A stretch of 64,000 bases of DNA from a virus. Both the position numbers and the translations under genes were made by a program. Numbering within the stretch: the first letter of the stretch is position 1; every line of letters begins with the position of its first letter. The stretch covers positions 1 through 64,000 of IMG/VR virus record IMGVR_UViG_3300047476_001057. The stretch is one strand, 5' to 3'. The notes beneath the pieces were generated by a model. It worked only from the letters and a program-made list of their open reading frames with translations. It did no database searches and was not told the origin of the DNA. Below are positions 10,048 to 17,447 of this stretch, one piece after another.

Positions 10048-11094
10048 CTAAAATGCTGCGTCATTAAACGCTTTATGTGTCTTCACTGCTGGTTCAAAGA
10101 AGAACAACTGGTTTTCTACGTATGAGTCTTCCTCATCGTTCACCGGTATATGTTCTACTTCTACAAGCAGCTGCGACTTGTTAATAAATTTAGTTATTGT
10201 ACCAACACGCTTTCTTTGTACATACAAACTATCACCTTCATCATATGCACTGAAGTATGCAGGTGCAACCGGTGCATTACGTGCATACTCTGTACGACTG
10301 CCGTCTTCGTTAATACGGAATATGTTGTACATATCAGCCTGATCACCTTGTACGTTGAAGATGTCTTTGAACAAAGCAGGATCCTGCTGGTGGATGTTGA
10401 CTTCTTCCACTACAGCTTTTACCAGGTCCATCGTGATGATCGGAAGTTCTGAGATCATCTTGATAGTGCAGTCACGCAGGTATGTATGAATAAGTTTATC
10501 ATCCACTACTTCCATGATGACGTCAAGGGTCAGGTCTGTGTAAGACTTAATGTAACGGATGCGGCTTGGACGCTGTAGCATATTACGCTCAATGCTTAGT
10601 TCATTAGTAGTGAGCAGAAACATCTTGCGTGTGTCTGTTCTAAATGCTCCATCCATTACAGAAAGCAGAGAGTTGTCGTATTTGTTATAGATTTTCTCGT
10701 ACTCATCTATAAAAATAATTACGTCCTGCTGTATGGAGTTGAGAAAACTTACCAACCCACCATAATGTTTTTGTACCAATATCACGGGTAGGTTAAGCTC
10801 ATTACAAATCAGCTCAGCGGTAACGGTTTTACCAGTGCCTTTCAAACCATTGAGCAGTATACCCATGTTACTAGTAGTGTTGTCCCAGCTTTTCTTTACA
10901 CGTTGTATAAACTCTGTCTCTACGCCATAGATCTTATACGGGAAAGAAAACTTGTCCTGCACATGATCAAGGTAGAAAAACTGATAGGGTTCATTATACT
11001 CCAGGCGGTATACACCTGGTTCAAGTAGTTCTTGTTGATGGCTGATTTCTGATAACCGGTAACTATTACCGGATTTTGACCAAACATTGTTCAT
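10048..11094 (-). CDS. AAA+ ATPase
   Basis: GLKGTGKT Walker A, IFIDEYEK Walker B, TTN sensor 1, RPSRI arginine finger. Confidence 0.92.
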   Translation of the reverse strand: MNNVWSKSGNSYRLSEISHQQELLEPGVYRLEYNEPYQFFYLDHVQDKFSFPYKIYGVETEFIQRVKKSWDNTTSNMGILLNGLKGTGKTVTAELICNELNLPVILVQKHYGGLVSFLNSIQQDVIIFIDEYEKIYNKYDNSLLSVMDGAFRTDTRKMFLLTTNELSIERNMLQRPSRIRYIKSYTDLTLDVIMEVVDDKLIHTYLRDCTIKMISELPIITMDLVKAVVEEVNIHQQDPALFKDIFNVQGDQADMYNIFRINEDGSRTEYARNAPVAPAYFSAYDEGDSLYVQRKRVGTITKFINKSQLLVEVEHIPVNDEEDSYVENQLFFFEPAVKTHKAFNDAAF

Positions 11095-11366
11095 ACGGTG
11101 ATTCTTTGAGTTTCATTATTAAGATGGTCCACTACATTTTGTAGTTGGTCTATATGACCAGGATTGAGTATAAACTCATCCCATGCTCCATACTTGGATG
11201 TATATCCAAAAATATATTTGACACCATACTTTAACCTATACCAAAAAGATCTTTTGATAAGGTGGACGTGTACATATGCTTCTGGTCCATAAAGTGGATC
11301 AGTTGTTTTATAAATCACCATTTGGTGTTCTGTACTGTTACAGGAACAGATTAATATAGACTGCAT
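11091..11366 (-). CDS. hypothetical protein
   Basis: 91-aa ORF overlapping the next start by 4 nt. Confidence 0.65.
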   Translation of the reverse strand: MQSILICSCNSTEHQMVIYKTTDPLYGPEAYVHVHLIKRSFWYRLKYGVKYIFGYTSKYGAWDEFILNPGHIDQLQNVVDHLNNETQRITV

Positions 11367-13646: not shown

Positions 13647-14393
13647 TTATGCAGACAATGAAAGTTTTTTACGCTCTCTATAGTTGTATACATCCAATAA
13701 CACTTTGACAAAGTCTTCTGCTTTGGGATAGTCAAACAAACTCACATGACGGATCTGCAGTTTAGCCATAAACTTTTCCCAGTTAAAATCTTTACAGTTT
13801 GAAAGATGGATGAGTGCATATACAAAAGCACGTCTATTCCAACCTTTGTAAAAAGTGCTGATTTCTCTGAGGTGAGAAAGCAAGCTTTTAGCTTTGTTTT
13901 CATGCATGACAACAAAAGTTCCCTCTTGAAAACCTCTTTTAGTCATAGAACCAATCTGAGTGTCTTTGAGTGTATACTTGTTTTCTAATATGGAACACAA
14001 TACACCATCTTTAAGCTCAGGAAACTGTTTCTTGTACTTTAAGAAGATTTCATAATTAGGATTACCCTGCTTAGCATGGTATTCTGCAAAATCAGATGCT
14101 ATCCAACCAGATCCGTTGTTATTGAGCTCAAGCATGTCAGAAGCTTTATAACCACTATCTGCTATTGTGTATTTAACAGGAAGTGCTAATGTTTTACATG
14201 CCATATAACGGTGCTGACCATCAATAATATTACCTTTTTGATCAATCAAGACAGCTTGTAAATTGCCGTTAGTTCTTGTGATACTCTCTTTAAGTTTAGT
14301 AAGCTTATGAGGTTTGATAGTTCTGTTCAAAGGATCAAATTTGAACATGGAATAGTCAGTTGTTAATCTGACTTCTGATACTTTTTTATTCAT
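13647..14393 (-). CDS. ParB/Srx N-terminal domain protein
   Basis: NRTIK...LKESI...AVLID...IIDGQHRY motif. Confidence 0.8.
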   Translation of the reverse strand: MNKKVSEVRLTTDYSMFKFDPLNRTIKPHKLTKLKESITRTNGNLQAVLIDQKGNIIDGQHRYMACKTLALPVKYTIADSGYKASDMLELNNNGSGWIASDFAEYHAKQGNPNYEIFLKYKKQFPELKDGVLCSILENKYTLKDTQIGSMTKRGFQEGTFVVMHENKAKSLLSHLREISTFYKGWNRRAFVYALIHLSNCKDFNWEKFMAKLQIRHVSLFDYPKAEDFVKVLLDVYNYRERKKLSLSA

Positions 14394-14665
14394 GATATCA
14401 GTTTTAATGGATTAATGGTTAAAAAATTAAAAAAGATTAGTTGTCTATCCCAGGGACTACGTTCAGTAACGTGGGCAGTCTTAGTGAGTATGAACCGTTC
14501 GTTTGACGGAGCTCTATCATCATGTCGTACTACTGAGTCGGAACTGGTCGGAGGCCGAACAAAACTTAATAGTAGGCTCCTGGGATCAGACAGACTACAT
14601 TGACTCATCGTAACAGACCATGCCCCTGGAGGACTTAGTGGTTTGAAACAATCGGTCAAAGAACT

Positions 14666-14950
14666 TTATTTGAGCAACACAGTTATTCGTGTTGTCATGA
14701 CACCATTAGGTATTCTTCTAATAACACCTTTTTGTTCAAGCAGCTTGAGATTACGTTTTACTGTGGGTGGTGTAATACCTAACTCAGCGGCCATTCTGTT
14801 TACGCTTACAGTTAACTCATTAGTCAGACCATCTGCATATGTAGATAAGTAAGCATACAAAGCTTTTACAGTGGTATTCAGTTCAGGATCAGACATTACA
14901 GCTTTGGATACCATACCAAACCCACCGGCTATCCGTGGATTCTTTTTCAC
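14666..14950 (-). CDS. winged helix-turn-helix DNA-binding protein
   Basis: KALYAYL...SVNRMAAELGITPPTVKRNLKLLEQKGVI signature. Confidence 0.8.
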   Translation of the reverse strand: MKKNPRIAGGFGMVSKAVMSDPELNTTVKALYAYLSTYADGLTNELTVSVNRMAAELGITPPTVKRNLKLLEQKGVIRRIPNGVMTTRITVLLK

Positions 14951-15055: not shown

Positions 15056-15640
15056 TTAGTCAAAAAGCCCATTTATGAGCCCGTCTACATCAAAACTACT
15101 GTCATTGCTACCCTGAAGAGGAAAACCAACCAGTTGCATGTATTTAGAGAAGTTGTACTTACTCTTTTTTACAAGCTCGATTCTTTGTACTACGTTTTCT
15201 TCTGTCAGTTTACCGTTAACATCATCTTCTATGTCATCATCTTCTTCTCCTTTGGCTTTGTCAGAAGCTTCTTTGAGTTTGTGAAGAAGTTTTAGAAGCT
15301 GAATCTTCATGGCATGTTCAGAATCTTTGTCGTTTTCCATTTGCCACTGCATAAAAGCAGAACCGGCCATTTTGTGATACATGTTAAACTGGAGAAGAGT
15401 AATTTCATACTCTAAAGGATCGTGTGTCATACTAAGCACACGTTCAAGGTCCCCGCTGACGGTTGTCAGTTGTTTGGGAGTCTCATCTCTGCTTGGAAAA
15501 AGCTCTATGCTCTGCAGAGAGTTTGCAAAATGGCAGAAAAAGATTCTTTCTCTGCATGTAATCATAGTTTCACGAGAAACACCTAATGCTCCGTGAATTG
15601 TTTCTTCATGGTGGTTAAACCGATGGTTTTGTAAAATCAT
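15056..15640 (-). CDS. hypothetical protein
   Basis: 194-aa ORF downstream of the array. Confidence 0.7.
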   Translation of the reverse strand: MILQNHRFNHHEETIHGALGVSRETMITCRERIFFCHFANSLQSIELFPSRDETPKQLTTVSGDLERVLSMTHDPLEYEITLLQFNMYHKMAGSAFMQWQMENDKDSEHAMKIQLLKLLHKLKEASDKAKGEEDDDIEDDVNGKLTEENVVQRIELVKKSKYNFSKYMQLVGFPLQGSNDSSFDVDGLINGLFD

Positions 15641-15685
15641 AACTTAAGATTGATGGATGTAAAAAAAAGATCTTATAAACTATAC

Positions 15686-16066
15686 CTGCCTTAACGTAAC
15701 GAGACTTAACTAACCTATACCCACCTTACCATGCCTACCTTAACTGCCGTAACAAAACTCAACGAACCCGTTCTGACGTAACCCCACCTTGCCTCACCTC
15801 AACCGTAACTGCCACACCAAATAACAACACACCGTTACACAACGCATCGTTCCATTCCGTACCCGTAACTGCCGTACTATACCGTAACGCAACACACCGC
15901 ACCGAGCCTCACCTCTCCATGGGGAACCTCCACATACCGTAACTGCCTTACCTGAGCATACCGCAACTTACCAAGCCCCTCCACGCCTTACTTCTCCGGA
16001 ACTGCCTTACCATAACAATGATTACCGTTACCCACCTCATCTTACCCGGCCTCACCACGTCTCACC
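15686..16066 (-). repeat. non-coding array of six units built from G(G/T)Y-NN pentamers, each closed by GGCAG (candidate guide-RNA array)
   Basis: GGCAGTT(A/C)(C/A)GG junctions at plus-strand 15996, 15937, 15863, 15803 and 15738, last GGCAG at 15686; units 65, 59, 74, 60, 65 and 58 nt; 59 of 65 internal pentamers start with G; T8 run downstream at 15661-15668. Confidence 0.9.
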
Positions 16067-16080
16067 GTATCAGGAAAATA

Positions 16081-16554
16081 TTAGTTAAGTGTGTCAATAG
16101 CGGAAGCTATCAACGTAGTAGTTTGAGAGAGTTCTTTGTAAATAGCTAGTTTGTTTTTTAGTATCAAGAGTTCTTTCTTGGTTCTCATCTTGATAAAGTT
16201 GATGTCATCAGGACTGAATGTCTCTATGTTCTTGTACTGGTTACCAGCTGGTGTACTGATCACTTCATATACAGCAATGTTCTTAGGCTGTCCGTCAGAG
16301 ATGATCTTCACCTCAATGTTGTTCAGGATGGTACGAGCCTGCTGTAGTCTGTAATGCTCTGCTGCCACTGAATCATTCCACTCAAACAGAGAATGAAACA
16401 GTGCGTTCTTGGGTCTTGATGCGTTAAGTACATTCTCGGGAGTTAGAGAGCCATAAAGGCCCTCTATTCTCTCGAGTTCTTGTACAGCATCATTGATGTC
16501 AATACCTTTAGCTAAACCTGCTAGCTTCCAGGCGTAATCTTTGATTAACTGCAT
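16081..16554 (-). CDS. partner protein of the RAMP/array locus, function unknown
   Basis: LTPENVLNASRP...FHSLFEWNDSVAAEHYRLQQARTIL motif; starts 5 nt after the RAMP stop and ends 14 nt before the array. Confidence 0.75.
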   Translation of the reverse strand: MQLIKDYAWKLAGLAKGIDINDAVQELERIEGLYGSLTPENVLNASRPKNALFHSLFEWNDSVAAEHYRLQQARTILNNIEVKIISDGQPKNIAVYEVISTPAGNQYKNIETFSPDDINFIKMRTKKELLILKNKLAIYKELSQTTTLIASAIDTLN

Positions 16555-16559
16555 GTCTA

Positions 16560-17189
16560 TTACATTTTAGAAGTGTCTTGTACATGTGAGTCAAGTTCTT
16601 GAGCAAGTACAAACCTGCCATAGTTAAACTTACCTTTCTCAGGTCTCATCTCACCAATACCACAGCCGTAACCGGCTGCTTTTACTAGTTGGTGGATTTG
16701 GTCCAGGGAAAGAACACCAGCGTTGAACTCAATAGTCAAATTAGCTGACCACTCAGGATATTCAGGACGGAAACGGATATCTGCAGCACCCATACCTACA
16801 CGGACCATGTCTCTACGTAAACGGCTTTCACCATAGATACGTACAAGCTGTGATTGTTCATCATCAGCTTTTACAAAGAAGTTGGTTTGCGTGTCTTTCA
16901 TGACCATGCCGATCATCTTGGCACCACGTACCATAGCTGCTTTGAAACCTGCAGCTGGGAAACCTTCCCAACCATGTTCACTGTAATGTTTTGCATTCTC
17001 AACATCTTCTTCTGGTACCTGTATCTCATGCTTTTTGTTCTTAGCACCACCATTACGGATGCCTATCATCATGTCAATGGCTTTGTTACTAAACTTGTTT
17101 ACAATAAGAGGAGATACACCTGAGATAGGAATGACTACATGTTTGATGTCAAACTGTTTGATCTGAACTGACTTGTTTGCTGTTGCCAT
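16560..17189 (-). CDS. standalone Cas7/RAMP-like RNA-binding protein
   Basis: N-terminal strand with SPL (ISGVSPLIV), FPAAGFKAAM helix (like Cas7 PGSSxKG), thumb-like hairpin RDMVRVG...DIRFRPEY, C-terminal Gly-rich loop GYGCGIGEMRPEKGKFNYGRF. Confidence 0.8.
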   Translation of the reverse strand: MATANKSVQIKQFDIKHVVIPISGVSPLIVNKFSNKAIDMMIGIRNGGAKNKKHEIQVPEEDVENAKHYSEHGWEGFPAAGFKAAMVRGAKMIGMVMKDTQTNFFVKADDEQSQLVRIYGESRLRRDMVRVGMGAADIRFRPEYPEWSANLTIEFNAGVLSLDQIHQLVKAAGYGCGIGEMRPEKGKFNYGRFVLAQELDSHVQDTSKM

Positions 17190-17237
17190 ACAATTGGTTT
17201 TTGAAATTTTACACTGTGAGGAATAAAAAAGGAGGGA

Positions 17238-17447
17238 TTAAAAACGGTCCGACAGGCTTACGTGTTTAACGTGGTTGCCTATTCTGATTGTAAATTCAGA
17301 ACCTCGTGCCATAATGGACACGTTTAAGTCGGCTGACCATTTACTGAAAGCTTCCATGTCTATAGGTTGCTTAGCTTTCATATAGGTTTTAACTTGTTGT
17401 GGAGGCTGTGGATCAGCAAGACCCAGTTTTAGGAGGAACTTTTTCAT
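17238..17447 (-). CDS. hypothetical protein
   Basis: Probable start MKKFLLK at 17447 within track ORF 17238..17513. Confidence 0.55.
   Translation of the reverse strand: MKKFLLKLGLADPQPPQQVKTYMKAKQPIDMEAFSKWSADLNVSIMARGSEFTIRIGNHVKHVSLSDRF

What the first reader, a model, noticed from the sequence alone, without database searches (positions are those of the whole stretch)
15686..17189. Candidate non-CRISPR RNA-guided system: standalone Cas7/RAMP-like protein, partner gene and a pentamer-coded guide array
Seen in sequence: a compact minus-strand unit of a 209-aa gene, a 157-aa gene, a 381-nt array and a T8 run. The array has six units (65, 59, 74, 60, 65 and 58 nt), each closed by GGCAG and joined by short linkers beginning TT(A/C). 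Each unit has a strict 5-nt period: a semi-constant triplet plus a variable dinucleotide. By hand count, 59 of 65 internal pentamers start with G, 31 are GGY and 13 are GTT. Established: the 209-aa protein has RAMP/Cas7 hallmarks (SPL strand, P-x-x-x-x-K helix, thumb hairpin, Gly-rich loop), and Cas7 proteins polymerise along RNA with a fixed nucleotide period. No cas1, cas2, cas3, cas5, cas6 or true CRISPR repeat is in the window. Inference: subunits bind the constant triplets and display the NN bases, so each unit is a separate guide, probably against competing phages or elements. From memory this matches a recently reported family called VIPR (RAMP protein with GGY/NN repeat RNAs); I cannot verify that here.
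Basis: partly seen in the sequence, partly recalled or inferred. Interest (0 to 1): 0.95.

Follow-up and report, generated by a model that had tools for sequence, protein, structure and literature searches.

The report
Phage VIPR guide-RNA system (known kind)
A 127-kb crAss-like phage carries a genuine VIPR system, the CRISPR-like RNA-guided DNA silencer first described in 2026 preprints: a small Cas7-like protein, an accessory gene and six five-letter-repeat guide RNAs. It is a real new example of a known kind, and its targets are still unknown.

Summary

**What is there (minus strand)**
- A 209-aa gene at 16560-17189, a 157-aa gene at 16081-16554, and a 381-nt array at 15686-16066.
- The array is six head-to-tail units of GGY/GTT+NN pentamers, each ending in GGCAG.
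- It is the strongest 5-nt-periodic spot in the whole 126.6-kb phage genome.

**Why it is VIPR**
- A profile of the 209-aa protein's family hits one solved protein only, the SUSP1 Vipr protein (E 2e-14).
- Its AlphaFold model (pLDDT 91) matches Csm3/Cas7 at Z 11.3.
- The Arg and acidic residues that hold the GGY bases in SUSP1 are kept.
- All 17 related loci with enough downstream DNA carry a same-strand GGCAG-delimited pentamer array. One is a 41%-identical actinophage homologue.
- Guides differ between relatives only at the NN positions.

**How it differs from the studied type II system**
- The units have no structured tail and overlap by 1 nt, as in the preprint's "staggered" arrays.
- The accessory protein is unrelated to vap1.

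**Not settled**
- No target was found.
- Transcription could not be tested.

This scan has already noted VIPR-like loci in over 200 other genomes. Verdict: a new member of a known kind, of modest interest.

The parts
16560..17189 (-). vipr: 209-aa stand-alone RAMP (Cas7-like) protein, the predicted filament subunit that binds one pentamer per protomer
   Evidence: Family profile A1 hits only PDB 36pp_D 'SUSP1 Vipr protein', E 2.2e-14, nearly full length. AF2 pLDDT 91.3. Foldseek and VIA top hits are all Csm3/Cas7, Z 11.3 with 153 residues aligned. Equivalents of SUSP1 R138, D177 and R179 are R141, E180 and R182. Also matches phrog_4652.
16081..16554 (-). vap-like accessory gene (157 aa), function unknown, possibly a winged-helix-like DNA binder with a C-terminal helical hairpin
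   Evidence: Lies directly downstream of vipr in all 16 close relatives whose contig reaches it. A 22%-identical homologue (E 1e-8) follows the array in Gordonia phage ODay. Matches phrog_15946. AF2 pLDDT 87.5. Only weak fold hints: MecI/BlaI at E 0.2-0.5, a DUF4494-like Atlas cluster at TM 0.74 and Rep3_N WH1 at TM 0.39. Not related to SUSP1 vap1.
16002..16066 (-). vrRNA unit 1 (65 nt, 13 pentamers, ends GGCAG); no upstream GGCAG junction
   Evidence: Register parse.
15943..16001 (-). vrRNA unit 2 (59 nt = 5k-1; 12 pentamers when the preceding G is shared)
15869..15942 (-). vrRNA unit 3 (74 nt = 5k-1; 15 pentamers; holds the longest clean G[GT]Y run, 15879-15913)
15809..15868 (-). vrRNA unit 4 (60 nt; linker TTACG, one extra base)
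15744..15808 (-). vrRNA unit 5 (65 nt; linker TTACG)
15686..15743 (-). vrRNA unit 6 (58 nt; last unit, ends GGCAG)
15661..15668 (-). T8 run 17 nt after the last GGCAG: possible weak terminator U-tract, or part of the next gene's promoter
   Evidence: Sequence. No G+C-rich hairpin found; a sigma-70-like -35 overlaps it. Relatives L020 and L010 have clear hairpin-plus-T terminators after their arrays.

Best explanation
The locus is a VIPR (Viral Interference Programmable Repeat) system carried as a three-part cassette (vipr, vap-like gene, vrRNA array) in the early or lysogeny-side region of a distant crAss-like phage.

**Shown here**
- The 209-aa protein belongs to the Vipr family and has the RAMP fold with the GGY-holding residues.
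- The array has the GGY/NN pentamer code.
- The protein-array pairing is conserved across relatives.
- Guide NN positions are hypervariable.
- There is no self-target.

**Inferred from the SUSP1 and P. fulva work**
- The three parts are transcribed as one minus-strand RNA.
- That RNA is cut at or next to each GGCAG junction into six guides of about 58-74 nt. The final G of one unit doubles as the first G of the next, as in a 'staggered' array.
- One Vipr protomer binds each pentamer, hides G-G/T-Y and displays NN.
- The filament pairs with double-stranded DNA by the xNN rule (one target base skipped per pentamer, typically the codon wobble) and blocks transcription of genes on competing mobile elements.
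- The NN composition here fits codon positions 1-2 read in the sense direction, which suggests coding-gene targets.
- The accessory protein probably helps at the DNA, as vap1 does for SUSP1, though it is a different protein family.
For: **Protein**
- phmmer to PDB 36pp_D 'SUSP1 Vipr protein' gives E 2.2e-4. The family profile A1 gives E 2.2e-14 with no other PDB hit at E <= 1. The same profile finds the SUSP1 vipr gene at E 8.8e-17.
- The AF2 model has pLDDT 91.3 and pTM 0.84. All top Foldseek hits are Csm3, Cas7 or Cmr (best E 1.5e-5). VIA gives Z 11.3, rmsd 3.5, 153 aligned residues to Csm3 8do6_E.
- Contact residues named in 10.64898/2026.04.26.720927 are kept: R141, E180 and R182. R182 is invariant and R141 is R in 63 of 64 family members.

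**Array**
- Periodicity z 6.5, and unique in the genome.
- 11-15 pentamers per unit, inside the published 9-16.

**Association with the protein**
- All 17 related loci with enough downstream DNA have a same-strand array with GGCAG unit ends. These include 37-41%-identical homologues.
- 57 of 71 unit lengths equal 4 mod 5, which fits the 1-nt overlap.

**Guides**
- No window unit is shared with any relative beyond the constant positions.
- Two homologous vrRNAs (L003 and L004) differ at 7 nt, all of them NN positions.
- No self-target under the xNN rule in the 126.6-kb genome.
- The NN log-likelihood favours sense codon positions 1-2: -137 against -147 for antisense or uniform.

**Context**
- Viral: portal, major head protein and tail fibres. 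The portal is related to crAss-like phages.
Against: - No credible target was found for any of the six guides. The searches were exact xNN seeds in IMG/VR and JGI metagenomes, and a search allowing up to 3 mismatches in 401 Bacteroidota-family genomes.
- The 1-nt skip rule has not been verified for this clade.
- The window's array is at the degenerate end of its clade. Only 2 of 5 measurable units obey 5k-1, G at pentamer position 2 is 60%, and several pentamers do not start with G.
- The stacking Trp of SUSP1 (W178) is Met here, and H17 is Asn.
- No clear promoter or hairpin terminator was found.
Confidence: 0.87

Rival explanations
1. The cassette is a VIPR by descent but is decaying or idle in this phage. 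The array has picked up indels and non-G pentamers, and its guides no longer match anything.
For: 3 of 5 measurable units break the 5k-1 rule, against 14 of 71 across all the arrays counted, the window's included. There are odd pentamers such as CCCAT, TCATT and TATTT. No target was found.
Against: vipr and vap are intact with the conserved residues. The G1, G2 and Y3 frequencies (0.88, 0.60, 0.82) lie within the range of the relatives. The VIPR preprint notes frequent internal degeneracy in working vrRNAs. Exact-match scans are weak tests.
Confidence: 0.08
2. The RNP acts on the phage's own programme or on the host (self-regulation, the lysogeny switch, or host defence genes) rather than on rival mobile elements.
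For: The cassette sits among integrase, ParB-like and replication-initiator-like genes. Other follow-ups in this scan reported guides that spell host restriction or CRISPR gene motifs (unchecked notes).
Against: No xNN match above background anywhere in the 126.6-kb genome. Unit 3 was not found in 401 genomes of the candidate host family. The host itself is unknown.
Confidence: 0.04
3. The periodic tract is not a guide RNA gene but a DNA-level feature next to an unrelated RNA-binding protein, such as a G-quadruplex-prone or protein-binding repeat.
For: GG every 5 nt could form two-tetrad G-quadruplexes. No RNA structure signal (z +0.71) and no Rfam family.
Against: The tract always lies on the same strand as, and adjacent to, Vipr homologues from 37% to 80% identity in unrelated genomic contexts. 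The constant triplet with variable NN is exactly the published vrRNA code. Absence of structure is expected for an RNA that is held single-stranded.
Confidence: 0.01

Closest known systems
VIPR systems with 'staggered' vrRNA arrays (bioRxiv 10.64898/2026.04.26.720920, fig. S18 legend; type not stated in the held text)
   Same: A Vipr-family protein next to a head-to-tail array of GGYNN units with no spacers. Unit lengths of 5k-1 fit the described 1-nt overlap, where the end of one vrRNA is the start of the next.
   Different: The figure and data tables are not held, so I cannot confirm that the published staggered arrays use the GGCAG junction, carry this vap family, or include crAss-like phages. 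In this window 3 of 5 units deviate by 1-2 nt.
Type II VIPR of Escherichia phage SUSP1 (NC_028808; Vipr structure PDB 36pp)
   Same: Same gene order, vipr-vap-array on one strand. The Vipr proteins are homologous. Same GGY/NN pentamer code with about 10-15 repeats per guide. Phage-borne, with no cas genes.
   Different: - Each SUSP1 vrRNA unit has its own upstream region and a structured 3' tail followed by a T-run. Here the units abut, with only GGCAG plus a 3-5-nt linker and no structure.
- The accessory proteins are unrelated (BLASTP E 13, hhalign probability 0.2%).
- W178 is Met and H17 is Asn here, and pentamer position 2 is T in 29% of cases.
Unannotated VIPR locus of Gordonia phage ODay (MW534375, gene 19) and Vipr homologues in Mycobacterium phages
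   Same: 41%-identical Vipr. GGCAG-delimited pentamer array in the 213-nt gap after gene 19. A homologue of the 157-aa accessory protein (gene 20) is present.
   Different: The order is vipr-array-vap rather than vipr-vap-array. The genome is high in G+C and the host is an actinobacterium.
CRISPR-Cas class 1 backbone subunits (Csm3, Cas7, Cmr4)
   Same: RRM core, thumb hairpin and glycine-rich loop. Best structural matches at Z 10-11 over about 150 residues.
   Different: 9-17% identity. No CRISPR repeat-spacer array and no Cas1. The period is 5 nt rather than 6 nt, and the guide is non-contiguous.

Membership tests
VIPR system | Protein homologous to an experimentally validated Vipr | tested here: met
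   The family profile hits only PDB 36pp_D SUSP1 Vipr, E 2.2e-14, over residues 19-194 of the query and 5-188 of the chain. The single sequence gives E 2.2e-4. The profile finds SUSP1 vipr in its genome at E 8.8e-17.
VIPR system | Minimal RAMP fold: one RRM core, thumb hairpin, glycine-rich loop | tested here: met
   AF2 pLDDT 91.3. Beta-hairpin at 123-131/135-144 carrying R141. G-loop with G173, G177 and G179. Csm3/Cas7 top matches at Z 11.3.
VIPR system | Residues that hold the GGY bases in SUSP1 (R138, D177, R179; also W178, H17) | tested here: met
   R141, E180 and R182 are conserved. W178 is M181 (whole clade reads GEMRP) and H17 is N31, both recurrent variants in the family (9/64 and 15/64).
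VIPR system | Adjacent same-strand array of GGYNN (YNNGG) pentamers, at least 4 repeats and typically 9-16 per vrRNA | tested here: met
   Six units of 11-15 pentamers. 67 of 76 start with G, 37 are GGY and 15 are GTT. Periodicity z 6.5.
VIPR system | Constant triplet with hypervariable NN across related loci | tested here: met
   Position entropies 0.71/1.40/1.45 against 1.79/1.96 bits. No guide is shared with relatives. L003 and L004 differ only at NN positions.
VIPR system | Protein and array co-occur in homologues | tested here: met
   17 of 17 loci with enough downstream sequence. The 5 loci without an array end at the contig edge.
VIPR system | Minimal locus (vipr plus an accessory gene), no cas genes or CRISPR array, mostly viral | tested here: met
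   vipr-vap synteny. No Cas1. No CRISPR-like repeat. Phage structural genes present. Other cas families were not searched individually.
VIPR system | vrRNAs are expressed, processed and bound by Vipr | not testable with these tools
VIPR system | Guides match natural targets under the 1-nt-skip (xNN) rule, with no self-target | tested here: inconclusive
   No self-target. No credible external target: seed hits did not extend (0-6 of 12 and 0-3 of 10 extra positions). The searches were exact-match or limited to 3 mismatches.
Type II VIPR (SUSP1 / P. fulva clade) | Each vrRNA carries an invariant structured 3' tail (pseudoknot) | tested here: not met
   Units abut with GGCAG plus a 3-5-nt linker. 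Array folding z is +0.71. No Rfam hit. SUSP1 tails were seen directly for comparison.
Type II VIPR (SUSP1 / P. fulva clade) | Accessory protein vap1 | tested here: not met
   BLASTP E 13; hhalign probability 0.2%.
CRISPR-Cas (type III-like) | Repeat-spacer CRISPR array and further cas genes | tested here: not met
   No such repeat in the window. No Cas1 in the genome. The two locus proteins have no Pfam, NCBIfam or PADLOC cas hit.

The most novel reading that the evidence does not exclude
The GGCAG-delimited, tail-less, 1-nt-overlapping arrays and the phrog_15946 (DUF4494-like) accessory protein may define a distinct VIPR lineage. It would be shared by crAss-like Bacteroidota phages and actinobacteriophages. 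In it, guide ends would be set by cleavage at the GGCAG junction rather than by a structured tail, and the Met-for-Trp G-loop variant would relax pentamer position 2 from G to G/T.
Probability: 0.25. Interest if true: 0.45.

Novelty: new member of a known kind. Interest (0 to 1): 0.3.

Why it matters
- It extends VIPR to a large, distant crAss-like phage lineage of Bacteroidota. At least five contigs of 127-133 kb carry the cassette.
- The GGCAG-junction array form and its accessory protein recur in cultured Gordonia phages, and Vipr homologues occur in cultured Mycobacterium phages. Those phages are easy to test in the laboratory.
- It offers compact, tail-less guides that could show how vrRNA ends are defined.
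- It does not change the concept, which three 2026 preprints and a large language-model survey already cover.

Tried and rejected
**Target searches (none credible)**
- Self-targeting under skip 0, 1 or 2: background only, 64-77% NN match.
- 83 array units from the window and its relatives against this genome and all related loci: background only.
- Exact xNN seeds in IMG/VR:
  - Unit 2 (20 specified bases): 0 hits.
  - Unit 3 (18 bases): 0 hits.
  - Unit 5: 0 hits.
  - Unit 4: 1 hit, extension 0/6.
  - Unit 6: 6 hits, most with in-frame stops.
  - Unit 1: 7 hits in 4 unrelated reading frames spelling [DE]V[DE]R[KN][DE]GT[KN], extension 0-3/10. My rough estimate is that about 2 in-frame chance hits are expected.
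- Unit 3 seed in JGI metagenomes: 37 hits, extension 0-6 of 12, which is chance.
- Full unit 3, up to 3 mismatches, in 401 genomes of the family of a MAG holding a related contig: none.
- A guide shared by relatives L003 and L005: 0 hits.

**Other attempts**
- Accessory protein fold: Foldseek gave nothing below E 0.2. The wide structural search matched only the C-terminal helical hairpin. No Pfam, NCBIfam or PADLOC family.
- Rfam families, ribozymes included, in 15400-17400: none.
- Solo vrRNAs elsewhere in the genome: none.
- Assignment to one of the seven published VIPR types: not possible, because the supplementary tables are not held.

Full report
**Observation**

Everything lies on the minus strand.
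- A 209-aa ORF (16560-17189) is followed 5 nt later by a 157-aa ORF (16081-16554).
- 15 nt after that ORF's stop comes a 381-nt G-rich tract (15686-16066), and then a T8 run (15661-15668).
- GGCAG occurs six times in the tract. It closes units of 65, 59, 74, 60, 65 and 58 nt, joined by TTCC, TTAC, TTACG or TTA.
- Read backwards from each GGCAG, the units fall into pentamers. Of 76 pentamers, 67 start with G, 37 are GGY and 15 are GTT.
- Positions 1-3 are constrained (0.71, 1.40, 1.45 bits). Positions 4-5 are nearly random (1.79, 1.96 bits).
- Lag-5 self-identity is 0.437 against 0.290 +/- 0.023 in shuffles (z 6.5).
- The tract is the top 5-nt-periodic region of the whole 126,629-bp genome. No other such tract exists in the genome.
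- No ORF of 50 aa or more crosses it.

**Is VIPR real?**

Yes. Three bioRxiv preprints describe Viral Interference Programmable Repeat systems.
- The components are a stand-alone RAMP protein (Vipr), an accessory gene (vap) and vrRNAs of 9-16 GGY/NN pentamers.
- The NN dinucleotides pair with double-stranded DNA while one target base per pentamer is skipped.
- The effect is transcriptional silencing of rival phages and satellites.
- Seven types are reported, with several array forms. One is the 'staggered' array, in which neighbouring vrRNAs overlap by 1 nt.
- A later survey recovered 99 VIPR-like array clusters.

**The protein**

- No Pfam, NCBIfam or PADLOC family matches. It does match phrog_4652, a family of unknown function.
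- Against all PDB sequences its best hit is 'SUSP1 Vipr protein' (36pp), at E 2.2e-4 across the G-loop region.
- The family is large: 3037 representatives at 50% clustering.
- A 64-member profile hits SUSP1 Vipr at E 2.2e-14 over almost the whole length, and nothing else at E <= 1. The same profile finds the vipr gene in the SUSP1 genome.
- The AlphaFold model is confident (pLDDT 91.3, pTM 0.84). It has an RRM core, a helical insertion, a beta-hairpin at 123-144 and a glycine-rich loop at 173-186.
- All leading structural matches are Csm3, Cas7 or Cmr backbone subunits (Foldseek best E 1.5e-5; VIA Z 11.3, 153 residues, rmsd 3.5).
- In SUSP1, R138 (thumb) and D177 and R179 (G-loop) hold the GGY bases, and mutating R138 or D177 abolishes silencing. 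Their equivalents here are R141, E180 and R182. R182 is invariant and R141 nearly so in the family.
- Two contacts differ. The stacking W178 is Met in this whole clade (GEMRP), and H17 is Asn.

**The association**

- Related loci came from IMG/VR (19), from two Bacteroidota MAG contigs, and from Gordonia phage ODay.
- All 17 loci with enough downstream DNA have a same-strand pentamer array whose units end in GGCAG. They hold from 1-2 up to 14 or more units.
- This holds for homologues at only 37-41% identity.
- The 5 loci without an array stop at the contig end.
- Unit lengths equal 4 mod 5 in 57 of 71 cases. So the last G of GGCAG serves as the first G of the next unit's GTTNN pentamer. That fits the published description of staggered arrays.
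- The window's guides are not shared with any relative beyond the constant positions.
- Two homologous vrRNAs in L003 and L004 differ at seven bases, all at NN positions.
- The flanking genes are not conserved, so vipr-vap-array moves as a cassette.

**The accessory gene**

- The 157-aa protein follows vipr in all 16 close relatives whose contig reaches it, at 34-65% identity.
- A distant homologue sits after the array in phage ODay.
- Its model (pLDDT 87.5) shows helices, a four-stranded sheet and a C-terminal helical hairpin.
- Fold searches give only weak winged-helix hints.
- It is not related to SUSP1 vap1.

**Differences from the studied type II system**

I read the SUSP1 locus directly.
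- The gene order is the same.
- Each SUSP1 vrRNA unit, however, has its own upstream region and a structured tail followed by a T-run.
- In the window the units abut. The array RNA folds no better than shuffles (z +0.71), and no Rfam family, ribozymes included, matches.

**Targets**

- Under the xNN rule there is no self-match and no match among the relatives.
- Exact seed scans of IMG/VR and JGI metagenomes gave nothing that extends beyond the seed. So did one 3-mismatch search in 401 genomes.
- Unit 1's seven IMG/VR hits fall in four unrelated reading frames and fail on extension, so I treat them as chance.
- These searches are weak, because published targets were called at 80% NN match or better and most of my scans required exact matches.
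- One indirect clue is that the NN composition fits codon positions 1-2 in the sense direction (purine-rich first base; log-likelihood -137 against -147). The same holds in close relatives. This agrees with the published wobble-skipping logic.

**Context**

- The genome is a single 126.6-kb contig, estimated 97% complete.
- It encodes a portal, a major head protein and tail fibres.
- The portal is 32% identical to that of Leptolyngbya phage Lbo-JY46 and about 22% identical to those of crAss-like phages.
- Earlier notes of this scan also call the genome crAss-like with an integrase.
- Close Vipr relatives sit on several contigs of 127-133 kb.

**Verdict**

This is a new member of a known kind: a VIPR system with a staggered, tail-less array and a non-vap1 accessory protein. 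Expression, processing and targets remain open. This scan has already logged VIPR-like loci in more than 200 other genomes.

Noticed in passing
L073:3110-3322 (Gordonia phage ODay MW534375, about 10973-11185) and gene 20: The 213-nt gap after hypothetical gene 19 (a 41%-identical Vipr) is an unannotated GGYNN array with GGCAG unit ends. Gene 20 is a distant homologue of the 157-aa accessory protein. Twenty-seven Mycobacterium phages (Donkeykong, Quico, Saal and others) also encode Vipr homologues annotated as hypothetical.
   Followed up: partly
L003:4101-4205 vs L004:4226-4325: Homologous 19-pentamer vrRNAs in two related phage contigs differ at 7 bases, all at NN positions and none in the GGY triplets. 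This is a clean natural example of guide reprogramming.
   Followed up: partly
window 16560-17189 (residues N31 and M181): The crAss-like clade has Met where SUSP1 has the G2-stacking Trp (GEMRP against GDWRP), and this protein has Asn for the G1-contacting His. Arrays of this clade use T at pentamer position 2 in 7-29% of pentamers. I did not establish a correlation.
   Followed up: partly
L059 and L064 (IMG/VR contigs of 39 and 42 kb, 36-37% G+C): Unit 1's nine-pentamer seed matches 18 of 18 bases in a roughly 270-aa ORF (peptide ...TKEVDRKDGTKKLV...). The four remaining pentamers do not match, so I judged it chance. It would be worth another look if the last pentamers prove not to be read.
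   Followed up: partly
window 15636-15668: The T8 run overlaps a sigma-70-like -35/-10 pair just upstream of the 194-aa ORF (15056-15640). It may therefore belong to that gene's promoter rather than act as the array's terminator. Relatives have clear hairpin terminators after their arrays.
   Followed up: no
window 13647-14950: Downstream neighbours are a ParB-like protein (phrog_12305) and a 94-aa DnaD/replication-initiator-like HTH protein. None of the flanking genes is conserved next to the cassette in relatives.
   Followed up: partly
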